Assembly (NCBI RefSeq): GCF_902652985.1
Contig: NC_047016.1
Coordinates: forward strand, 24,738,001-24,802,000
Length of the DNA: 64,000 nt
Reading direction: 5' to 3'
Source: Pecten maximus
Taxonomy: Eukaryota
The position numbers were made by a program, and so were the translations under genes. The notes under the pieces are model-generated. The model saw only the letters and a program-made list of their open reading frames with translations, had not been told where the DNA came from and did no database searches. Of this stretch, positions 43,401 to 59,453 are shown piece after piece. Positions within the stretch are counted from its first letter, which is position 1. Each line of letters opens with the position of its first letter.

Positions 43401-44498
43401 GGCAACATTATGATATATATGTGGGAGATTACTCCCTCTTTATGTTGAAAACCTACATAATACTCATTTTAACTTGATACTGACAACAAAACAATTACCA
43501 AAACTTGTATAATTATGTCGTTTAAGCTGGCAACAAAACATTCTTATCATGCAGCGTTATTATTTCAGAGTGATGCTGACGAAGCCGAAGTGAATACTGA
43601 TAACTTCCAGGTGGATGTGCTTGGTTTGATGTTTGTTATGCTATTTTGTTTGATGGTGTTGATCCAGTTCATTGGAATGATTGTACACAGATGGGGAACT
43701 TTCATACATTTGATAGCAATTACGAATGTACCGAATCCGTTTACGAAAAGTGTAAGTGAGACTGATGATGAAATGGAAAGTTCTAAACACGTCGCCGAAA
43801 AGGTACTAGAATTTTGTGAAAGATTAGACGCCGAGACAATTCCAGATTATGCAATGAATAGCGATGAAGAAAAAGAAGAGGAGGAACAGGTGAACCGTGC
43901 AATGGAGGAAGTTATAAATAACATTCAAGAAAAAGGAACGAAAAATATTCCTGGTTCTATGAATCCGCTTGGTAAGAGTATTAGACAATCGGAATTCGGT
44001 ACAACAAGCAGGGGAAGGACGGATAGAAAAAGTGATATGGTAAAATCGATTATCAGGCGTACAACTCGAACGGAAACCAACATCTTGGATTTGACTGAGA
44101 AACAGGAAACAGATAAAAGTACAGCAGCAAAACAAAATGTGTTAAATGATATCAAGCTAAACGTTCCGAAATTACGTTTCGGTGCGGGAGTGCCTCTACA
44201 AAAACATTTCATGATGGAAGTAAGAAACAGAAAGCTACCTAACACTCCTGGGGATTTTATGAAAATGGAACGTTTGAGTAATACTCTCACCAGAGGAGGA
44301 TACGATCATGACACTTTCATCGATCGCGAAGAAGATACTGATCCCATTTACGACACGATCCCAGCATTGTGTGCTATGGACAAAGCATTCTCTAAGAAAT
44401 TCAAGACATTCAGAAATCAGGAGAAACAGGAGAAATGGAAACGGGGATCAAGGCAAACCAATACACTTCGCGAATACAGTGATCATGACCTATACTAG
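5117..44498 (+). CDS. CHS: Myosin motor domain-containing chitin synthase (GT2), spliced gene of ~34 coding exons, ~2,490 aa
   Basis: Manual GT-AG splicing gives phase-consistent exons from [10 protein letters not shown]... to ...SDHDLY*, except across the N-gap in exon 21. Myosin P-loop, switch I, switch II, relay and SH1 motifs are followed in frame by chitin synthase motifs ([62 protein letters not shown]). Confidence 0.96.
6651..8838. repeat. 22-bp minisatellite (acaaaacacacaggtaaatga[t/c]), ~100 copies, in intron 1
   Basis: Direct tandem array; it explains all the Cys/Val/Phe-rich minus-strand ORFs here. Confidence 0.98.
11233..11760 (+). mobile_element. 5'-truncated non-LTR retrotransposon (LINE, CR1/L2-like) ORF2 C-terminus
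   Basis: [13 protein letters not shown] motif, HARLR, and [17 protein letters not shown] zinc knuckle ending at a stop. Confidence 0.8.
11786..11943. mobile_element. 158-bp MITE with 24-bp TIRs
   Basis: ctattccgatgccgatggcaaaag versus the reverse complement of cttctgctatcggcatcggaatag (22/24). Confidence 0.75.
12126..12191 (+). CDS. CHS: Myosin-CHS exon 2 ([22 protein letters not shown])
   Basis: [10 protein letters not shown] myosin motif; ttttcag acceptor, gtaaat donor. Confidence 0.93.
12724..12951 (+). CDS. CHS: Myosin-CHS exon 3, P-loop
   Basis: PHVF..A..AY and GESGSGKTE; aag acceptor, gtgagc donor. Confidence 0.93.
13199..13313 (+). CDS. CHS: Myosin-CHS exon 4, switch I
   Basis: [25 protein letters not shown]. 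Confidence 0.95.
13374..13417. repeat. (CT)n microsatellite
   Basis: Direct reading. Confidence 0.95.
13848..13995 (+). CDS. CHS: Myosin-CHS exon 5
   Basis: [22 protein letters not shown]. Confidence 0.95.
13996..15070. repeat. 39-bp minisatellite (gtatgtttaccgaatatacatgatagatagtatcaaaat), ~27 copies
   Basis: Tandem array beginning at the exon 5 donor GT. Confidence 0.97.
15246..15348 (+). CDS. CHS: Myosin-CHS exon 6
   Basis: tgcag acceptor and gtattt donor; phases match the neighbouring exons. Confidence 0.85.
15597..15717 (+). CDS. CHS: Myosin-CHS exon 7
   Basis: [16 protein letters not shown] myosin motif. Confidence 0.92.
15995..16066 (+). CDS. CHS: Myosin-CHS exon 8
   Basis: [25 protein letters not shown]; phase 1/1. 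Confidence 0.9.
16711..16840 (+). CDS. CHS: Myosin-CHS exon 9
   Basis: [21 protein letters not shown]. Confidence 0.94.
17106..17202. repeat. Degenerate (GAAT)n/(GAAC)n microsatellite
   Basis: Direct reading. Confidence 0.85.
17905..18142 (+). CDS. CHS: Myosin-CHS exon 10, switch II and relay helix
   Basis: [27 protein letters not shown]. Confidence 0.95.
18935..19099 (+). CDS. CHS: Myosin-CHS exon 11
   Basis: [11 protein letters not shown]...FGIKHFAGK. Confidence 0.94.
19375..19515. repeat. Degenerate ~24-bp tandem repeat (tgttctgttgaattagtg...), ~6 copies
   Basis: Recurrent ctgttgaattag core. Confidence 0.7.
20582..20931. mobile_element. Possible Kolobok-type MITE
   Basis: TTAA-AGCGAT ... 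ATCGCT-TTAA termini; short TIR only. Confidence 0.45.
21120..21262 (+). CDS. CHS: Myosin-CHS exon 12
   Basis: [16 protein letters not shown]...[10 protein letters not shown]. Confidence 0.92.
21561..21692 (+). CDS. CHS: Myosin-CHS exon 13 (loop-2 insert; 3' boundary uncertain)
   Basis: tttcag acceptor; open frame [19 protein letters not shown]...; phase-2 donor either GG|gttaac (21692) or AG|gcgtgt (21674). Confidence 0.7.
22077..22146 (+). CDS. CHS: Myosin-CHS exon 14
   Basis: [23 protein letters not shown] (TV...F motif after loop 2); an alternative in-frame acceptor would start the exon at 22071. Confidence 0.85.
22168..23015. repeat. 48-bp minisatellite (acaacagagagtaccgacataataacgaaaccataattctaactaaaa), ~17 copies
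   Basis: Tandem array starting ~20 nt after the exon 14 donor. Confidence 0.97.
23048..23398. repeat. 31-bp minisatellite (aaatcta[a/g]gtcacatcgac[a/g]acatc[t/c]gtcat), ~11 copies
   Basis: Tandem array adjacent to the 48-bp array. Confidence 0.95.
23750..23805 (+). CDS. CHS: Myosin-CHS exon 15
   Basis: [19 protein letters not shown], which joins CIKPN in the next exon. Confidence 0.92.
25615..25764 (+). CDS. CHS: Myosin-CHS exon 16, SH2/SH1 helices
   Basis: RCIKPN...[26 protein letters not shown]. Confidence 0.94.
26590..26710 (+). CDS. CHS: Myosin-CHS exon 17, converter
   Basis: RYRPL...VRFGKNR (equivalent of the G.TKVF motif). Confidence 0.9.
26721..27185. mobile_element. ~465-bp MITE with 18-bp TIRs
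   Basis: ggaacaaccaaccaattg (26722-26739) versus caattggttggttggtcc (27167-27184), 17/18; TTAA on the left side. Confidence 0.75.
27728..27889 (+). CDS. CHS: Myosin-CHS exon 18, neck with IQ-like motif
   Basis: LFMKE...[18 protein letters not shown]. Confidence 0.9.
28322..28500 (+). mobile_element. Degenerate tRNA-derived V-SINE
   Basis: A/B-box-like head followed by gtgggtttcccgcgagtactccattttccgcccac, resembling the V-domain core. Confidence 0.65.
28652..29058 (+). CDS. CHS: Myosin-CHS exon 19, low-complexity linker
   Basis: Open frame between ttgacag and GA|gtttgt; joins in phase to EFWDIF. Confidence 0.87.
29485..30240. repeat. 47-48-bp minisatellite with alternating variants, ~16 copies
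   Basis: Recurring gatctaca.ccatcgtacgtgtgagaac core. Confidence 0.93.
31669..31840 (+). CDS. CHS: Myosin-CHS exon 20, start of chitin synthase N-terminal TM region
   Basis: FWDIF...[24 protein letters not shown]. Confidence 0.92.
31915..32310. repeat. 37-bp minisatellite (ttactatgtctattatttcaccagataccatgt...), ~10 copies with 4-mer higher order
   Basis: caccagata every 37 bp; the variant pattern repeats every 148 bp. Confidence 0.93.
32659..32815. other. Assembly gap (157 N)
   Basis: N run. Confidence 1.
33088..33347 (+). CDS. CHS: Myosin-CHS exon 21 (interrupted by N-gap; 5' boundary uncertain)
   Basis: tctgcag just before the gap; after the gap [27 protein letters not shown]...LII then gtaagt. 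Confidence 0.7.
33091..33228. other. Assembly gap (138 N) inside a coding exon
   Basis: N run. Confidence 1.
33549..34465 (+). CDS. CHS: Myosin-CHS exon 22, multi-TM region
   Basis: 305-codon hydrophobic frame with SFSYWENFV and [15 protein letters not shown] motifs. Confidence 0.95.
35137..35253 (+). CDS. CHS: Myosin-CHS exon 23
   Basis: [22 protein letters not shown]. Confidence 0.93.
35730..35858 (+). CDS. CHS: Myosin-CHS exon 24, start of catalytic domain
   Basis: [22 protein letters not shown]. Confidence 0.93.
36092..36177 (+). CDS. CHS: Myosin-CHS exon 25
   Basis: RMDKDQ...HYYEYE; gtgagt donor. Confidence 0.92.
36426..36575. mobile_element. Degenerate palindromic non-autonomous element
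   Basis: tatttcttgaactcccgttagtt versus aattaacgagagtgaaagaaata inverted arms. Confidence 0.5.
37188..37290 (+). CDS. CHS: Myosin-CHS exon 26
   Basis: PHIFFDDAF. Confidence 0.94.
37735..37888 (+). CDS. CHS: Myosin-CHS exon 27
   Basis: TPYGGQL...[16 protein letters not shown]. Confidence 0.95.
38400..38585 (+). CDS. CHS: Myosin-CHS exon 28
   Basis: [11 protein letters not shown]. Confidence 0.94.
38973..39108 (+). CDS. CHS: Myosin-CHS exon 29, DxD motif
   Basis: [11 protein letters not shown]...[10 protein letters not shown]. Confidence 0.95.
39252..39452 (+). CDS. CHS: Myosin-CHS exon 30
   Basis: [35 protein letters not shown]. Confidence 0.96.
40444..40671 (+). CDS. CHS: Myosin-CHS exon 31, catalytic EDR and QRRRW
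   Basis: [14 protein letters not shown]...[11 protein letters not shown]. Confidence 0.97.
40795..40870. mobile_element. Short palindromic element
   Basis: tttacccgatggtatcatatttc versus aaaagtatgataccaaagggttaa around a cccgagggcttgtccgag centre. Confidence 0.5.
41510..42473 (+). CDS. CHS: Myosin-CHS exon 32, TM helices, WGTRE and coiled coil
   Basis: IHPHEF...[11 protein letters not shown]...[11 protein letters not shown]. Confidence 0.95.
42842..43013 (+). CDS. CHS: Myosin-CHS exon 33 (alternative donor at 43043)
   Basis: YLYPL...[28 protein letters not shown]. Confidence 0.88.
43569..44498 (+). CDS. CHS: Myosin-CHS terminal exon 34, last TM and long cytoplasmic tail
   Basis: QVDVLGLMF...[19 protein letters not shown]; TAG at 44496-44498. 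Confidence 0.94.
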   Translation, partial: SDADEAEVNTDNFQVDVLGLMFVMLFCLMVLIQFIGMIVHRWGTFIHLIAITNVPNPFTKSVSETDDEMESSKHVAEKVLEFCERLDAETIPDYAMNSDEEKEEEEQVNRAMEEVINNIQEKGTKNIPGSMNPLGKSIRQSEFGTTSRGRTDRKSDMVKSIIRRTTRTETNILDLTEKQETDKSTAAKQNVLNDIKLNVPKLRFGAGVPLQKHFMMEVRNRKLPNTPGDFMKMERLSNTLTRGGYDHDTFIDREEDTDPIYDTIPALCAMDKAFSKKFKTFRNQEKQEKWKRGSRQTNTLREYSDHDLY

Positions 44499-47494: not shown

Positions 47495-49241
47495 TCACAA
47501 CCTTTTTGTACTCTGAACATATAACACTTAGTGTACCATGCTAAAACTTATTAAAAGATTGCCAATAAAAAATGTTGTTTTCTTTGATCTAACAACAATT
47601 ACCAAAGAAAGAAATTTTCCCTGGGGTGAACAATTTAGCTGTTCCCGACGATCTTATCAGCAAACAAATGTTCTCCCTGATTGGTATGTTATGGTGATAG
47701 GTTGACATAAGTGTCTGTGAAGCTTGTTCCTATTTCCATTATCGTCTTGTTATTGTATATTAAATATGCTTCAAATGAAAAATAAAAGAAATTTTTAAAC
47801 TATAAAACATACGTTTATTACGGTGGGATAGTGTCACCGGAAGGAAACTTGGCGAGTGGCATTCATTTGTATTTCATTAGTCATTATCGTGATTATCAAT
47901 TAAGATTAAGATCACAATTATTCAGCTGTACCTAAAATAGTTTCGGTAGACCAGTAGGTCGTCCCAAGTATTTTCATAGAGTCTCTTCAATAGGAAAATC
48001 AAAAATGATTCATTCAATGCGGCAAGTTATCCGAATTCATGTAGGAAAAAAAGGTTGCATTTTGAAACGACTTTATTTACTATGTATGTTGTCGGGTCAC
48101 AACCAATCAAAATAAGGTGACGCAATATGCGGCCTTGGGAGTTTTTTTCAGAATACCTGACACTTTCAATAACAATACATACTGGCATCTAAACGTAGCG
48201 ACAACTCTAACTCACAATCGACAAATTTGGGGCTAAATACAAATAAAATGTAGATCTTTACAGAAGACATTTGAGAAGTACAAGAGGAAAGAGACCAAGG
48301 CGTCAAAGGCCAAGCATCTTCTGCCTCATCAACAACACCACGCAAATTCGTCATTTCACTGTATCTATCACGGGGCTGTGTTTATCCTTGAATATTAAAT
48401 CAGCTGGGACATGTAAACGCCGACACTCTTTAACGTTTTCCTTGTGTGTGTGGGCGGGTGGGTGTGCGTGTGTGCGTGTGCGTGTGTGTGCAAGCGTTCG
48501 TGGGCTTGCATGCGGGTGTGCGTGCATTCGTGCTTGAATGCGTAATCGTACGTGCGTGTGTGCACGTGTGCGTGTGTATGTAATTGAACAAGGGTAAATT
48601 TAAATATATGTATACCTCTCACAACCTGTCTGTACTTTGAACATATATCACTTAGTGTACCAGGCTCAATCTTATTAAAAAATTGCCATTAAAACCAGTT
48701 TTGCTGTTGTTTTTTTTTTTTTCTTTCAACAATTACAAAGAAAGAATTTCCCCTGGAGTGAACAATTTAACTGTTCTTAACGATCTTATCAGCATAAAAA
48801 AGTTATCCCTGATTGGTATGTTACGGTGATAGGTTGACATAAGTGTCCGTGACACTTGTTCCTATTTCCATTATCGTCTTGTTTATTGTATGTATATTAG
48901 ATATGTTTGGAATGAAAAATAAAATAAAGTTTAAACTATAAAACATACGGTTATTACGGTGGGATTGTGTCAATAAAAGGAAATTTGGCGAGGACTAGGA
49001 GTGGCATTCATTTGTATTCCATGTAACTCCTGAAGTCATTATCGTGATTATTAATTATCAATATACTAGTTCCCCGTACACGTTGTTATTTTTCATGTTT
49101 TCCCTGCCATGTTAGGAATGGATGATGATATATGCCATTAGCTTTTTGGTGATGTTTATAGTAATGATTTGTACGAGCATTTTATTAGTATTGCTCTTAT
49201 TTTAAGGTGCAAATAAGATCACAATTAGTCAGCTGTACCTA
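47495..49241. repeat. Diverged local direct duplication (47495-47934 and 48619-49241)
   Basis: Colinear similarity; the second copy carries a ~155-bp extra segment; a (GT/GC)n tract at 48443-48580 lies between the copies. Confidence 0.9.
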
Positions 49242-50843
49242 TTCAGGTCAAAAGGTCTTCCCAAAATGATTTTAGTATGGCTGCACTTGTTAACAAATGA
49301 ATTTGTTTCTGTCGAAATCGGCATGCGTAGAGTTGGGGAAAATATCAGAGAATGTTATATATAATGGGGTCGACATATTGCAGAATGAATGAGAAACATT
49401 TGGGTTTTCAGTGTATTTCGAGCATGTTTCTGATTTAACTTTTTGTAGTAGAATTCTTCAGATTAAGGTTCCCATTAATGTGTAATGATTCACCATTCAC
49501 TAAGTAATCGTGTCTTTTTCATGGTCTGATATAAATGATGAAGAGCGACCTTTTCGGCTTGTTTTCGAAAGTTTATTTGCCACAGATTTAAAATATCTAT
49601 TAATTTAAGTGATACAGACAGATTATCTGTTGAGCGTCTCTGTTCTTGCCTAATATCACAACACTATTTTTGACATCCTTTATACAATTTAAAATGATCT
49701 TGCCACTCAAGTATTATTAGAAACCAAATACGTTATAAATATATGATTCCGGAAGACTTTGATACACACGTTTACCCAGAAAACGGCCGGATACGGATAG
49801 TCTTTTTGTACATCAGTCTTTTTTTCTAGGAGGATGAATAATGTTTCTAGTAGGCGTTTCTTAAAAAGCAAATTACTGTTGTTTTATACATTTTGAAAAA
49901 TGACTTATATTTGAAACTCCTTTCTAATCCTTTAAATAAAATACAACGGGTGCATTTATATAAAACATATCTTTGAATGGAGCCCTTTGAAAAAGCACAA
50001 GGCTAATAAGGCCACGTCCCCCTTTAAAGCAAACACGTTTTGCTTTATCGACAACTATACCGCCTTATAGGTCAAATACGGGTTTTAAACACGCATGATT
50101 TCATACCGCAAAATGAAATTTAAAATTTCCAAGTGGGATTCAGATGTTGACCATAGGACCCAAAGTCCTCATCAATCGATATCTTTCGAAACTTCATGCT
50201 GCTTATTCTTGTCAGTAGTAGGCACCTGTCACGGTTATCCTGATAAACAATTCCTAGATAATCGAAGCAGTGATATCACTACCTAGAAATAGAAAGTTAA
50301 CTTCAATCGGAAATTAAATCATCACGCTTATTATAAAGCTCCGTAGTACACTCTCTCTCTGCTAGCTAGATGGTAAGTAAAGATCGAGGAATGCGGTTGA
50401 CATCAAAATGCTATTCTCAAATTCTTTACATGAAGCATGTTTTGTTGTCATAAAACACTATGGCTATTGCATTCAAAATAGGTATACCTTTTAACTTTTG
50501 GCAACTTAAGTTGTTTTTTTTTTCTTCCAAATGCGCTCCTTTTTTCCCCTGGTTAAATACTTACATTGATGAAGAACAATAAGATATCCGACTGACTTGT
50601 TATTTCTTACAAAAGGAAATTCGGAATTTGAAAATATAACATCAATATATGTTTCGATATAATACAAATTTATACGTTCAGAAGTCTTGACTATACACTA
50701 CATTTCACCAGTTTAGTATGTCTCCCCATATTCTGAAGATGTTTTTTTTTTAATTTTAAGTTGTTTTATTTTAAACTACACACAAACATTATGATGCGAA
50801 AGCGTACAGAAAAGCAAAACAAGGTCACATTAACATACTTAGT

Positions 50844-52057
50844 TTACCGTTTAAATATACCTCTGACCAGTTGCCTGTATCTCGTACCTCTTGCAACAAA
50901 CATCACCGAGTTTACAACTGAATTAACCAGTTCCATGTAATACATCAATCCTTTACAAAAATCGATTGATACAAATGAAAGTGTTGTCATTGAGTTGTCG
51001 ATAAATGCGGTGCTGAGAGATTTCCCCGGGATGTAAAAACAGACTGTAGTCAACGCCATCATCAAGAAGGTGACTGTACTCCTGGACTGGTATGCAGAAA
51101 GCCTTCGCTGGTTATTAGGGGTGTGTATTGCAGGACGAATAACTGGTGGATCCTTGCTTGAAGAGCTGGATAAAGTGGATTCCTCTGCATCCAACGGTGC
51201 TCCTTTCGCCATTTTAGTGAATACATCAGGGGTATTTGTAACAAACTGACTTTGGTTATCTGGGCGACCTCCTATGTTTGTGTCAGTAGATGTGCTGACA
51301 TATACCTTATTTTTCTGTTCAGTTTTAACTTTGCACGATAGCCTGTTCCCCTTCTTTATGGCATAAACATGCCCCCGTAACATCACCACAACCACTAAAC
51401 CCAAAGTGCATATAATAAAATCGGGCAGGAATTCGAACGCCATAATGAACAATGTGTGAGCTACATTAGAATATGCATTTTCTAAGAAGATAACGTCCAC
51501 GGCAGTCATTGATGTGTCGTTAGGGTTGATGGAATACGATATATATATTGCCTTCGGTATCCCAATTAGCACTATCAGTCCAAAACTGGATATAATCATA
51601 ATGATCAGGCGTCCTTTCGTCTAAAGATGTCTTAGTTTTGTTGGAAAGCAGATAGCGATAAATCTTTCCATAGACATAATTGCCAGTAACGTTTTAGAAA
51701 AGAAAAGTAGCAAATAATGTACATACCCAATAAAACCCTGGCATCATGATTGGGTAAAGTCCGTCCATTACCTCCCTGTGAACACAAATCTGACGCTGTC
51801 AAGACGAATAATGTGATTGTGGTGGTGTCCCATTTACCAACCATTCTCAGAGCGTGCATTAAAATACCGTTCGCTACAATACTCAATAGTGCCGTTGAAG
51901 GTACTACGCCAAAATACAGAACCTTCCAATAAAAAAGAAAACCCGACGACATACTGACAACGGTTGAAGTTATGATACGCTAAGAGATTGGTAGGCTTTC
52001 CGATAACTCTACTACTTTTTTCAATTCGGATGGGTTATTATAACCCTGTACATTCAT
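50844..52057 (-). pseudogene. Intronless rhodopsin-like (class A) GPCR, disrupted
   Basis: TM1 ANG, TM2 LTASDL, TM3 CQGFIG...AIMSMERFIAICFP, TM6 CFYIP, TM7 NSVVNSVMF and helix-8 RYRQ. In-frame TAG at 51621-51623, frameshift(s) at ~51740-51780, and another TAG at 51980-51982 after an upstream in-frame ATG at 52057. Confidence 0.85.
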
Positions 52058-52730
52058 CAATGCGATATTCCGTCCGAGATAATTCGTAGCATAATGAATA
52101 ATCGGTTAAACAAAGGCTAATGATCTCCTAGGAATCTTATTGTCCATGTTCATGTTCATATTTCCCGAAGTCATTTACTTTACCTCGCTACTTTCGAGCG
52201 ATTCGTAATTGTATTCGTTTATGCAAGCTCGATGCGCGAACGTGTGTACTGTGCCTAATTAATCTTAGGAGAGTACACTACCTTTATCATCTCTCATATG
52301 ATGTTTGATTTTGTATGGCCATATCACAAATGTCCTGGTTGATAATTTTTTTCAAATGACTTGTGCATCATGTATTCTCATTGCCGCTGAAGCAGTGCAT
52401 AATTTACATATAGGCCATATCATTTTCTTTTCCCATTTCTTTTAGACTAAACAATAAATCACATGTTTATGCTCAGATCATCATAAAACTCGGATAAGTC
52501 GAAGTCGACGGAACTGAGTTAAATAATCGACTTATTCGGTGGTTCGACTTAACCCTGTTTCTATGTATCGACATACAATGACATAAATTACCAGTTTCGA
52601 TAGGTCTACCGTATACATGCTCGATACCATGGTAAGATAAGCAATACATTGATACATTAATTATTTTGTACCCTAAAAATAATTTTTGAATAAAATAAAG
52701 ATTGTAGGTTAATTTGCACAGAATAGATAA

Positions 52731-54675
52731 TAACTTTTGAATGTTCAGCAGCTCAACATACGACATACGACATTCAGATTTTGAATGTTCAGCCGCTGAA
52801 CATACGACATACGACATTCAGATTTTGATTTTGAATGTTCAGCGGCTCGACATACGACATACGACATTCAAATTTTGAATGTTCAGTCGCTGAACGGGTG
52901 CATTTATATAAAACATATCTTTGAATGGAGCCCTTTGAAAAAGCACAAGGCTAATAAGGCCACGTCCGCCTTTAAAGCAAACACGTTTTGCTTCATCGAC
53001 AACATACCGCCTTATAGGTCAAATACGGGTTTTAAACACGCATGATTTCATACCGCAAAATAAAATTTAAAATTTCCAAGTGGGATTCAGATGTTGACAA
53101 TAGGACCCAAAGTCTTCATCAATCGGTATCTTTCGAAACTTTATGCTGCTTATTCTTTTGTCAGTAGAAGGCACCTGTCACGGTTATCCTGATAATGTAA
53201 ACAATTCCTAGATAATCGAAGCAGTGATATCACTACCTAGAAATAGAAAGTTAACTTCAATCGGAAATTAAATCATCACGCTTATTATAAAGCTCCGTAG
53301 TACGCTCTCTCTGCTAGCTAGATGGTAAGTTAAGATCGAGGAATGCGGTTGACATCAAAATGCTATTCTCAAATTCTTTACATGAAGCATGTTTTGAATG
53401 TTCAGCCGCTGAACATACGACATTCAAAACTTCATATCTTGTGTTTTTACCAGCCAACGAGGTAACTTTTGAATGTTCAGCAGCTCAACATACGACATTC
53501 AAATTTTGAATGTTCAGCCGCTGAACATACGACATACGACATTCAGATTTTGAATGTTCAGCCGCTGAACATACGACATACGACATTCAAAACTTCATAT
53601 CTTGTGTTTTTACCAGCCAACGAGGTAACTTTTGAATGTTCAGCAGCTCAACATACGACATTCAAATTTTGAATGTTCAGCCGCTGAACATACGACATAC
53701 GACATTCAGATTTTGAATGTTCAGCCGCTGAACATACGACATACGACATTCAAAACTTCATATCTTGTGTTTTTACCAGCCAACGAGGTAACTTTTGAAT
53801 GTTCAGCAGCTCAACATACGACATACGACATTCAGATTTTGAATGTTCAGCCGCTGAACATACGACATACGACATACGACATTCAGATTTTGATTTTGAA
53901 TGTTCAGCGGCTCGACATACGACATACGACATTCAAATTTTGAATGTTCAGCCGCTGAACATACGACATACGACATTCAGATTTTGAATGTTCAGCCGCT
54001 GAACATACGACATACGACATTCAGATTTTGATTTTGAATGTTCAGCGGTTCGACATACGACATACGACATTCAGATTTTGAATGTTCAGCCGCTGAACAT
54101 ACGACATACGACATTCAAAACTTCATATCTTGTGTTTTTACCAGCCAACGAGGTAACTTTTCAATGTTCAGCAGCTCAACATACGACATACGACATTCAG
54201 ATTTTGAATGTTCAGCCGCTCAACATACGACATACGACATTCAGATTTTGATTTTGAATGTTCAGCGGCTCGACATACGACATACGACATTCAAATTTTG
54301 AATGTTCAGCCGCTGAACATACGACATACGACATTCAGATTTTGAATGTTCAGCCGCTGAACATACGACATACGACATTCAAAACTTCATATCTTGTGTT
54401 TTTACCAGCCAACGAGGTAACTTTTCAATGTTCAGCAGCTCAACATACGACATACGACATTCAGATTTTGATTTTGAATGTTCAGCGGCTCGACATACGA
54501 CATACGACATTCAAATTTTGAATGTTCAGCCGCTGAACATACGACATACGACATTCAAAACTTCATATCTTGTGTTTTTACCAGCCAACGAGGTAACTTT
54601 TCAATGTTCAGCGGCTGAACATTCAAAATCTGAATGTCGTATGTCGTATGTTCAGCGGCTGAACATTCAAAATCT
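52731..54675. repeat. Palindrome-rich ~44-bp satellite (ttttgaatgttcagccgctgaacatacgacatacgacattcaga) with higher-order spacer, split by a duplicated block
   Basis: Tandem units at 52731-52895 and 53392-54675; the last ~70 bp are inverted. Confidence 0.95.
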
Positions 54676-57533
54676 AATGATCTCCTAGGAATCTTATGGT
54701 CCATGTTCATGTTCATATTTCCCGAAGTCATTTACTTTACCTCGCTACTTTCGAGCGATTCGTAATTGCATTCGTTTATGCAAGCTCGATGCGCGAACGT
54801 GTGTACTGTGCCTAATTAATCTTAGGAGAGTACACTACCTTTATCATCTCTCATATGATGTTTGATTTTGTATGGCCATATCACAAATGTCCTGGTTGAT
54901 TTTTTTTTTTTTCAAATGACTTTTGCATCATGTATTCTCATTGCCGATGAAGCAATGACATAAATTACCAGTTTCGATATGTCTACCTTATACATGCCCG
55001 ATAACATGGTAAGATAAGCAATACATTGATACATTAATTATTTTGTACCCTAAAAATAATTTTTGAATAAAATAAAGAATGTAGGTTAATTTGCACAGAA
55101 TAGAGAATAATACAGTTAACATGTCAGACCCACGTGTATAGACATGCACACTCGTAGTCATTCACGAAATAAGGACGGTATTGAATTTTCTACTCGTAGT
55201 TATATCCCAAATATTTAAAAGTTTTCTTCAAAAATATGGACTAATATAAGGAATATACAAATCTACGATACAACGAATACACATCGATAGGTTTGGGTAC
55301 CGATACATAAGGTGAAGGCCACAGCAAAGTCACTCAAGTATAACTAGTCACAAAGTTTTAAATAAAAAAAATAGAGACATCCCAAATGTTGTCTCAGGAA
55401 TTGTTTATTTTTCGATCGATAACTAGGTTTTATTTCCCTAAGATATCATGACGCACGGCTGTTGGACTCAAAACAAAAAGGAAAATTTGCATAATTAAGA
55501 AGGAATGGACCACAAATTAGATTCGACACAACCGCAGCATTCGATTAAACAGTGTTCGAAACATCCATGTTTAATTTACTAAGACAAATAAGAAGAAACA
55601 TCGGGACCTAACAAAACATTCAACTCATAGGATGTATTCGATTCAAGAATGCTCGGTACATGAGAGTTTTACGGTATATACATTAATAGTTGTTTCCTTG
55701 ATTACCAAGGGCACTCGCACAAAACATCTTTGAAAGCAATCCTTCAAGTGTTAAAACCAGTTTGTTCATATAACCTTTGATATGAGTCAAGGTCACATGT
55801 TTTTGCAATCATTGTCTCCCGTTGTCCAGAAAATCTACCAGCCAAATATTTTGTTTCTAAACATTTCGGTTTGTTGAAACAAGTCATTTTGGCTAAAAAA
55901 CAATAATTGAATATAGTCAATGGACGTTTTAAGCAAAGTATGTATCGGTAAGATCCCTCCCAGTGTTTGGTTATTGCATTAGCTCACTTGTGCATTTTTA
56001 TAATAGTTTCAGGCTTTGTCGTATTACTTCATTAAATAACCAAATCTACTTAAATGAAACGGGTCAGCTGTTGGTGCAATGAAATACAAAGACAGACTCG
56101 GTGTTTTTCACGGTTTTGTTTCAAAACAAGTCAATCGATATTTGCTTTACCAGTATATAACTTCTAAGGAGTTATCTGACAATTAATCGTTATAGAAAAT
56201 TTAAGTCGTAATACAACTCAAGACTGTAGTTTTAAGACCTTTCAACCAGAACAGTGGGCAAGTCTGTACATAAGCAACATTATTAAGCATGATAACTCAA
56301 ACCAAGGTATAAACTTTTAAAATGCGAAATTAGGTGACGATGCATAGACTTTTTCCCTGTGTTGAGGGTTTGACAGAAAAATCTCAGACCCTCGATGTGA
56401 TATTTTGACAAGGAAACGCAACTTCCATTCCGAAAATGACTGTAATAGTATTAGCTCTGAATACTATTCTACAAGTTCTAAAATATCTAGAATTGATACA
56501 CAATCAGCAGAGTGATTTGAGGCCAAGCCCTGAATAAGTTACAGCGTAATAACTGATTGTTCACCATTCAACTATTTTTTTTAATTAGGAAATCATTTCG
56601 GTATTATCAGTTGCTATGCTTTCCGGACGTTTTGTCTGCAGAAATCTGGAAACCATCTAACAGATGAAAGTTTAAACAACTGATCTTCTAGTTTCGAAGA
56701 TTTTGTCGGCGATCTTTACTTTTGTCGCAAAGCTACATGCATTGTGATTCAATGATAAGTCATCATTTGTTTACGGAACACAATTGGTATCACTTTCTAT
56801 GTCTTTATTTATTCTAAAACATGTAGTGGTACAATGTTTTAAAGAGAGCATCTGTTATTTTCTTTCGTAGGGGATTCGAAACTATGTAACTCGCCCACGA
56901 AATTTAAACTAGCTTCTTAATTAAGAACCAGCTGTATTATTTATACAAAAACTTTCGAATTAGCTCAGAACAGTGACCGATGCGTGAACTATTCCATCTC
57001 GTACGATAACGACTCTTCATGAACTGTTGTTATGCTCACAGAGTGGTACATGTAGGTAGTAAGCATTGGTACCACAAAACGTATTATCAGCTGAAATGAA
57101 TTAGGTGTCTCCTGCCGCTTCCTTTTCTTCAGGTGAAGTCCTATTATCTTCGGTACTGTAATTATATTGATTCTTATTATATCTCCTTTATGATTATTAC
57201 ATTTAAGAACCGCCTTACATGTACTGATTTCAGCTACGTCAATACTTCTATATCACAGCAGATATAGAAAATCTGTGCTCTATGACGTCACGACATATTA
57301 ATGACAACTGTACCCTCTAAAACAAATGAGGCCATTACCCCGTCGTTATGTAGAACTAATAACTCGAGTGTCGGTCACTCCACGAAAATATCTGGGGGAA
57401 AATCAAAGTTCCGAATACAATGAATAAAAGCAAACTGAAACGGATATAATTCAGCGGTTTAAAGATAACATTCTTAATGAGAGGAGTATTAAAGCAGCAC
57501 GTTATATATGTTTTCATAATGAATACGAGAACT

Positions 57534-58913: not shown

Positions 58914-59453
58914 TTAGTAATCTGGTAGAGGATGAAAGTGATCATCTTCTGGATTTAGTTGCCGTTTCCGTCTACGAACCGTCTTTGATAAGTGGTAATT
59001 ATATGTTCCTACCTCATATTTTATTGTACGAGGTTTAATGCTATCCTGTCCATGAATGCCTTTGGCCCATTTAAGGATATTTTCGTCTTGTGCCATCTTA
59101 TTGTCGTCTGTTTTCCCTTTTGTCTGGACATCCTCGATAATAGCTTTTAATTTCCCGCGTTTTTCTTTCTTTGCTTTAATGTTATCTTCGGTACTATCAT
59201 TATGACGCAGTAATTTTTCTCCGTAGCTTTCCTTTAACCGAGCTAAGAACTGTTCCTTCTTTTCCTCCAATGTCGTCTGTGACCAAGGCCAGGCCAATTC
59301 GGTGAAGGCTAACAAATGAAGCAGGGTACCCCATCGATGCATCACCATTCCACAGAACTGTATTAGGAGAAGTGCCATGAAGAATATAACAAAGGAAAGT
59401 CCGAGTACATCAACTTGGAGGTAATCGGTGGATCCACCTTCTTCTCCCCATAT
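58914..59453 (-). CDS. CHS: Paralog CHS terminal exon (IWGEEGGSTDYLQVDVLGLSFVIFFMALLLIQFCGMVMHRWGTLLHLLA...PLPDY*)
   Basis: tttctag acceptor; QVDVLG and HRWGT motifs; 540 nt to TAA. Confidence 0.93.
   Translation of the reverse strand: MWGEEGGSTDYLQVDVLGLSFVIFFMALLLIQFCGMVMHRWGTLLHLLAFTELAWPWSQTTLEEKKEQFLARLKESYGEKLLRHNDSTEDNIKAKKEKRGKLKAIIEDVQTKGKTDDNKMAQDENILKWAKGIHGQDSIKPRTIKYEVGTYNYHLSKTVRRRKRQLNPEDDHFHPLPDY

What the first reader, a model, noticed from the sequence alone, without database searches (positions are those of the whole stretch)
49945..55110. 'Ghost' GPCR duplicate: both flanks are duplicated but a satellite replaces the gene body
Seen: the order is B(49945-50444), GPCR, A(52117-52732), satellite, B'(52893-53396), satellite, A'(54674-55110). 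A ~2.8-kb unit was tandemly duplicated, and in copy 2 the 1.67 kb holding the receptor ORF is occupied by 1.28 kb of satellite. All four junctions show short microhomologies (taac, aac, ttttg, ct), and A' has a ~183-bp deletion at a 'ca' microhomology. Inference: template switching (FoSTeS/MMBIR) or rolling-circle-element-mediated rearrangement driven by a hairpin-forming satellite, giving a snapshot of receptor birth-and-death.
Basis: partly seen in the sequence, partly recalled or inferred. Interest (0 to 1): 0.7.

Follow-up and report, generated by a model that had tools for sequence, protein, structure and literature searches.

The report
Foldback transposon scar beside dead receptor
The 'satellite' is a broken piece of a foldback-type jumping gene found all over this genome, the receptor gene next to it is already dead, and the second, receptor-less copy of its flanks was likely pasted in from another version of the chromosome during error-prone DNA repair, which is a clean but ordinary case of a known process.

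Summary
The layout is right (B-GPCR-A-repeat-B'-repeat-A'); the reading needs three corrections. (1) The repeat is the internally repeated arm of a foldback-type DNA transposon: fixed terminus (184 exact hits), mirrored arms, 9-bp target duplications (10 exact, 4 near-exact of 15 paired copies), long copies of 15-20 kb. The window's pieces lack both termini. It is not a rolling-circle element. (2) The receptor in copy 1 is already a pseudogene (50-bp deletion, +1 insertion, stop). (3) B' shares 11 of its 14 differences from B with a single-copy, receptor-less allele in another animal, so copy 2 likely came from another allele, not from a duplicated receptor. Microhomologies are 3, 3, 5 and 2 bp (P=0.0005). 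Word depth points to three B copies in two samples, but no contig showed the four repeat junctions, so a misassembly (about 17%) is not excluded. Arm-abutting duplications occur at 4 of 52 other element loci, one of them probably stacked alleles.

The parts
49945..50444 (.). B: unique 3' flank of the receptor pseudogene, copy 1
   Evidence: a contig identical to 50122-50273 is in X2, X3 and X4
50513..50531 (.). Branch point of a receptor-less allele: contigs leave the window's sequence here into sequence 'Z' that is not in the assembly
   Evidence: X2, X3, X4, X5 loose ends and pieces; Z motif has 0 hits in the window and 0 in G000
50844..51952 (-). Intronless rhodopsin-class GPCR pseudogene: 50-bp deletion near 51785, 1-bp insertion near 51728, TGG>TAG stop at 51621-51623
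   Evidence: paralogs carry Pfam 7tm_1 above cut-off; contigs of X2, X3, X4 match the lesion region with 0-1 other letters and no gaps
52117..52733 (.). A: unique 5' flank, copy 1; holds a high-copy dispersed repeat at about 52480-52614
52731..52895 (+). s: 165-bp internal piece of a foldback arm bridging A to B'; TAA and AAC microhomologies at its ends
   Evidence: 98.2% to the local array, 98.8% to copies elsewhere
52893..53396 (.). B': second copy of B, carrying the variants of a receptor-less allele
   Evidence: 11 of 14 B/B' differences shared with X5's single-copy allele
53392..54675 (+). S: terminus-less foldback fragment: forward arm of 44-bp hairpin units and 38-41-bp spacer modules, centre of symmetry near 54613, ~70 bp of the mirrored arm; TTTTG and CT microhomologies at its ends
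   Evidence: no terminus motif in the window at up to 3 mismatches
54674..55110 (.). A': second copy of A with the 183-bp deletion
   Evidence: deletion joint in X1, X3, X4; three distal variants shown shared with X5

Best explanation
The stretch holds a dead receptor gene followed by a second copy of its two flanks, joined through two terminus-less fragments of a foldback-type transposon arm, and the second copy was likely taken from a different, receptor-less allele by microhomology-guided template switching. Shown: the repeat's identity, the pseudogene lesions, the microhomologies, a segregating receptor-less allele, and copy 2's variant sharing with it. Inferred order: (1) on one allele lineage a foldback element came to lie between B and A, and error-prone repair of its hairpin-rich arms removed both termini and the DNA between, leaving B'-S-A'; (2) a fork or break at the end of A on a pseudogene-bearing chromosome switched into arm sequence (TAA), copied 165 bp, switched to the start of B' on the homologue (AAC) and ran on, giving x-B-G-A-s-B'-S-A'-y. 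A single four-switch event that used the homologue as template gives the same product and is not told apart here. No second receptor need ever have existed.
For: Element identity: fixed terminus at array heads; 15 of 33 fetched loci have both termini within 10 kb, 10 with exact and 4 with one-mismatch 9-bp TSD; 184 exact termini. No terminus in the window; all four junctions lie inside arm sequence with 2-5 bp microhomology, P=0.0005. Allele origin: X5 has one 2252-bp contig running flank-B-Z at the same depth as the flanks, with 11 of 14 B' differences; likelihood ratio 65 for B and 27-729 for distal A against a same-chromosome duplication (counts read by hand; assumes a clock). In X4 the del183 A' type has a left neighbour that is not the repeat (loose end at 52122), so that allele type exists apart from S. 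Reality of the duplication: B'-type to B-type word depth 1.85, 1.71, 2.07 in X1, X3, X4; X2 and X3, probably the assembled animal, show B leading to the receptor and to Z, so the assembly's B'-S is a third context. Similar arm-abutting duplications at L024, L081/82, L087.
Against: None of the four repeat junctions appeared in the tables of the 5 runs laid (one search's tables were cut). In X3 the B'-type depth is only 1.41 times single-copy contigs, and the tool warns that contig depth is no copy number. The assembly's 50483-50531 matches the receptor-less path rather than the receptor path of the reads, so polishing mixed alleles and may inflate B'-allele sharing. L098 shows that this assembly can stack a filled and an empty allele across an N gap. 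s is no closer to local S (98.2%) than to distant copies (98.8%), so a local donor is not shown. No chromosome carrying B'-S-A' alone was seen. With three sequences, shared states could be ancestral.
Confidence: 0.6

Rival explanations
1. Assembly artefact: two alleles of a heterozygous site were stacked through the repeat.
For: Copy 2 carries another allele's variants; junctions unseen in contigs; polishing cross-talk at 50483-50531; stacking exists elsewhere in this assembly (L098); A and A' types are each single-copy in X1 and X3.
Against: No N gap here; the same-sample runs already use their two alleles for B-receptor and B-Z, leaving B'-S as a third context; B'-type depth about twice B-type in two samples; the joining junctions J1 and J2 each have 3-bp microhomology, each expected in 6% of random joins.
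Confidence: 0.17
2. One reading: the whole 2.8-kb unit with its receptor was duplicated on one chromosome, and the repeat later replaced the second receptor.
For: Geometry fits; B/B' and A/A' divergences are similar, 2.0% and 2.8%.
Against: Differences are lopsided: 11 private to B, 3 to B', 2 to the outside allele; no receptor remnant in copy 2; the receptor was probably dead already, as the lesion region is the same in a second sample.
Confidence: 0.12
3. Transposase-driven alternative transposition or imprecise excision of the foldback element made the rearrangement.
For: The family has moved recently: near-identical long copies and exact TSDs, a filled and an empty site at L098. J4 lies within 5 bp of an unrelated junction in X4, which may mark an old insertion site.
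Against: No junction in the window uses an element terminus and no 9-bp duplication flanks S or s; no transposase found in the long copies.
Confidence: 0.08
4. A rolling-circle (Helitron/Helentron) element captured and re-deposited the flanks.
For: Tandem arrays inside Helentron-derived elements are reported in an oyster (PMC7492417, search listing only).
Against: This family has inverted termini and 9-bp TSDs, which rolling-circle elements lack (recalled); B and A occur nowhere else in G000.
Confidence: 0.02

Closest known systems
Drosophila FB foldback elements (PMC7642927; passages seen)
   Same: Conserved end sequence, blocks of short repeats in mirrored orientation, unequal block numbers in the two arms, 9-bp target duplication, link to rearrangements.
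   Different: Here the units are themselves hairpins of 44 bp, arms reach 6.6 kb and long copies 15-20 kb; the window's rearrangement uses microhomology inside an arm, not ectopic recombination between two intact elements. No sequence comparison with FB was made.
Tm1 Mutator/Foldback family of root-knot nematodes (PMC3169594; passages seen)
   Same: Composite internally repeated TIRs, 9-bp TSD, a truncated copy at a locus whose neighbouring DNA is deleted in one strain.
   Different: Tm1 has transposase-coding members; none was found here. Tm1 elements are far smaller.
Tetris of Drosophila virilis (PMC4079207) and Galileo (PMC3573991); passages seen
   Same: Foldback arms that look like satellite arrays; many rearranged and solo-arm copies.
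   Different: Galileo is P-superfamily; superfamily here is unassigned beyond the 9-bp TSD.
Complex insertions and templated-insertion rearrangements by FoSTeS/MMBIR (PMC5120786, PMC7025897; search listing and abstract start only)
   Same: Several copied segments joined by 2-5 bp microhomologies.
   Different: Germline, invertebrate, kilobase scale, with transposon-arm fragments as bridges and a second allele as likely template.
Hemizygosity and gene presence/absence in molluscs (bioRxiv 10.1101/2020.09.15.298695; passages seen)
   Same: A gene-bearing block present on some chromosomes only, near transposon sequence.
   Different: The block here holds a pseudogene; that paper's passages stress insertions as the source.

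Membership tests
Foldback transposons (the repeat family) | Long terminal inverted repeats built of internal tandem repeats | tested here: met
   Mirrored arrays running inward from both ends
Foldback transposons (the repeat family) | Conserved non-repetitive outer end | tested here: met
   One terminus motif at array heads in 32 of 33 loci; 184 exact 29-nt hits, 0 for the reversed control
Foldback transposons (the repeat family) | 8-10 bp target-site duplication | tested here: met
   10 exact, 4 one-mismatch, 1 none (spans an N gap) of 15 paired loci; of 7 extended loci, 5 had a far end: 3 exact, 1 with two mismatches, 1 none
Foldback transposons (the repeat family) | Arms of unequal length and a variable or absent middle | tested here: met
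   Elements from 0.4 kb without middle to 20.5 kb with a shared ~8.6-kb middle
Foldback transposons (the window's copies as insertions) | Termini and TSD at the ends of S or s | tested here: not met
   0 terminus hits in the window; ends are internal arm positions. They are fragments.
Mutator-like superfamily | 9-bp TSD | tested here: met
Mutator-like superfamily | MULE DDE transposase in an autonomous copy | tested here: inconclusive
   19 short open frames from one middle region gave no Pfam hit at cut-off; none of 82 PF10551 matches in G000 falls inside the five long copies with both ends; a highly spliced gene would be missed
Helitron/Helentron rolling-circle elements | No target-site duplication, no long TIR (recalled) | tested here: not met
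Helitron/Helentron rolling-circle elements | Rep-helicase gene | tested here: inconclusive
   No such Pfam hit among the 19 frames; no dedicated search
FoSTeS/MMBIR-type complex rearrangement | Microhomology at several junctions, above chance | tested here: met
   3, 3, 5, 2 bp; P=0.0005
FoSTeS/MMBIR-type complex rearrangement | All junctions formed in one replication event | not testable with these tools
   Needs population alleles or pedigrees
Rhodopsin-class GPCR gene | 7tm_1 domain | tested here: met
   3 of 3 intact paralogs score 42-53 bits, cut-off 30.5; the window's 258-aa open half alone scores no family
Rhodopsin-class GPCR gene | Intact reading frame in the window | tested here: not met
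   Two frameshifts and a stop

The most novel reading that the evidence does not exclude
This hairpin-unit foldback family is a genome-wide template-switching hub: its arms repeatedly splice pieces of different alleles into tandem arrangements, and so help to make the presence/absence variation of bivalve genes without any transposase cut at the site. The window would be a case in which a gene-bearing and a gene-less allele were fused on one chromosome.
Probability: 0.25. Interest if true: 0.55.

Novelty: new member of a known kind. Interest (0 to 1): 0.32.

Why it matters
The locus itself changes no working gene. Its value is (1) a large, recently mobile foldback family that tandem-repeat tools label as satellite, for which three paper searches found no description in a mollusc, and (2) a base-level example of how such arms may generate the small duplications, deletions and gene presence/absence that are common in bivalves. 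It also warns that a 'duplicate with a missing gene' can be a second allele, in the animal or in the assembly.

Tried and rejected
Window array start as the element's terminus: rejected, the motif is internal in other copies. Local S as the donor of s: not distinguishable. Search for Z and for X4's junction motif: no hits (the X4 motif was searched in the window only). Transposase in the middle region: none found; the 109-aa frame tried as a possible exon turned out to be a nested non-coding repeat; the protein Atlas gave no answer. Homologue search with an intact paralog found nothing at E<=0.001 among 2446 candidates, so the receptor's subfamily is not named. No RNA holder listed for the stretch. 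Lack of contig cover over the receptor in X5 is not used alone; the contig that runs on into Z is the evidence. The four repeat junctions were not seen in contigs; contigs show presence, not absence. No supplementary files, Repbase or Dfam were seen, so the family may be catalogued there.
Full report
Observation. Self-BLAST and alignments give B 49945-50444, A 52117-52733, a 165-bp repeat piece s (52731-52895), B' 52893-53396, a 1.28-kb array S (53392-54675) and A' 54674-55110 with a 183-bp deletion. B/B' differ by 10 substitutions in 497 bases and 4 indels, A/A' by 12 in 433. Random joins between this flank and an intact arm average 0.72 bp, and four joins summing to 13 or more arose in 0.05% of 100,000 draws. 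The region lies between the 3' ends of two convergent genes that look like chitin synthases (one exon has a Pfam chitin synthase hit).

The receptor. The gene (51952-50844, minus strand, no intron) is broken by a 50-bp deletion, a 1-bp insertion and a TGG>TAG stop. Contigs of X2, X3 and X4 cover the lesion region with 0-1 other letters and no gaps, so these are not assembly errors and they are shared by two samples. Its relatives (68-75% over the long matches) sit in tandem clusters on contig C17; of 9 loci fetched, 7 have open frames of 362-401 aa, one is cut at 213 aa and one has none over 200 aa; 3 of 3 tested carry 7tm_1. The window copy is a lone, dead outlier of that family.

The repeat. 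A 401-base piece of S has 412 matches among scored candidates across the genome. In 33 fetched loci the arrays are built of the same two modules, a 44-bp hairpin unit (z=-3.5) and a spacer, and often face each other. Array heads share one terminus. Fifteen of the 33 loci have both termini within 10 kb; 10 have an exact 9-bp target duplication, 4 one mismatch, 1 (across an N gap) none; 17 have one terminus and 1 none. Extending 7 one-ended loci found the far end in 5, giving elements of about 15-20 kb with a shared middle of about 8.6 kb at 96-99% identity; 3 have exact TSDs. The 29-nt terminus occurs 184 times exactly. This meets the description of foldback elements in PMC7642927, PMC3169594 and PMC4079207 (passages seen). 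A 9-bp TSD suggests the Mutator superfamily, but no transposase was found. In the window there is no terminus: s is an internal arm piece, and S is a forward arm plus the centre of symmetry plus about 70 bp of the mirror arm. No junction is a transposase end.

Other alleles. Five DNA runs hold the stretch: X1-X3 from one sample, probably the assembled one and so not independent, and X4, X5 from two other studies. X1, X3, X4, X5 were laid and X2-X5; all are contigs. In X5 one 2252-bp contig runs from the left flank through B to 50519 and then into sequence Z, at the depth of the flanks; X2, X3 and X4 have the same exit at 50531. Z is not in the assembly. So a receptor-less allele segregates. 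Of the 14 differences between B and B', X5's single-copy allele shares 11 with B', lacks 3 and has 2 of its own (the 2-bp deletion and its neighbouring substitution may be one event). In distal A, X5 has 6 other letters and no gap, and the 3 rows shown are A' variants. Under a clock, this favours 'copy 2 is kin to the receptor-less allele' over 'B and B' are sisters' by 65 for B and 27-729 for A. The 183-bp deletion is in X1, X3 and X4, not X5, and in X4 a contig joins A at 52122 to sequence that is not the repeat.

Real or stacked. For real: B'-type words are 1.85, 1.71 and 2.07 times as deep as B-type words in X1, X3, X4; the same-sample runs show B continuing into the receptor and into Z, so B'-S is a third context in one animal; the region has no N gap; and the two joining junctions carry microhomology. 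Against: no table showed J1-J4; X3's ratio to single-copy contigs is only 1.41; the assembly's 50483-50531 follows the Z path, a sign of polishing across alleles; and L098 shows a filled and an empty site stacked across an N gap in this assembly. X4's receptor allele has further breaks at 51152 and 51327 and no contig for the middle of A, so X4 does not simply repeat the assembled haplotype. I put misassembly at about 17%.

Mechanism. Most likely, error-prone repair of a foldback insertion left B'-S-A' on one allele lineage, and a later microhomology switch through 165 bp of arm joined it behind a pseudogene-bearing allele. The junction chemistry is shown; the order, the use of the homologue and the role of hairpin stalling are inferred. 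One four-switch event is equally compatible. s is as close to distant copies (98.8%) as to local S (98.2%), so its donor is open.

Recurrence. Among 52 other element loci (33; 19, picked for doubled or unpaired termini and so biased), direct duplications abut an arm at 4: L024, L081/82, L087 (a cut arm joined by 2 bp to a 524-bp segment repeated 2.4 kb away) and L098 (probably stacked alleles); 3 others have direct duplications away from the arm. No random-locus control was run.

Novelty. Foldback elements that pass for satellites, their link to rearrangements, templated complex insertions and mollusc hemizygosity are all described. Searches for foldback with bivalve, scallop or mollusc terms and passages of PMC5139131 and PMC10294476 showed no description of this family; repeat databases and supplements were not seen. 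The scan's notes hold no look-alike and one analogous but separate case with a LINE fragment. Verdict: a new member of known kinds, interest 0.32.

Noticed in passing
L031+L070+L071, L073+L072+L043, L053+L074 (G000 C16, C5, C3685): Long foldback copies of 20.5, 18.9 and 14.8 kb with exact 9-bp TSDs and a shared ~8.6-kb middle; no transposase found.
   Followed up: partly
L098:1681-9595: Filled and empty versions of one insertion site lie in tandem across an N gap: likely stacked alleles, and a sign that the element is polymorphic.
   Followed up: partly
L024:5251-8643; L081/82:1056-7750; L087:3304-6485: Local direct duplications with a breakpoint in or at a foldback arm.
   Followed up: partly
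window 52117-52122: X4 has a different junction 5 bp from J4, with a short inverted copy of the adjacent flank that looks like a templated repair insert. Unexplained coincidence.
   Followed up: partly
window 51152 and 51327: X4's receptor allele leaves the window's sequence at two more places.
   Followed up: no
window 47495-47902 and 48619-49057: An older 81% direct duplication just left of B.
   Followed up: no
window 33543-44498 (+) and 58914-59453 (-): Two convergent chitin synthase-like genes flank the locus.
   Followed up: no
L057-L065 (G000 C17): Tandem cluster of intronless receptor paralogs with near-identical pairs (L061/L062, L059/L060) and at least one truncated member.
   Followed up: partly
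window 52480-52614: High-copy dispersed repeat inside A, partly removed by the 183-bp deletion.
   Followed up: no
L043, L053 arms: The 126-bp higher-order arm unit gives long open frames of 337-536 aa, probably by chance of periodicity.
   Followed up: no
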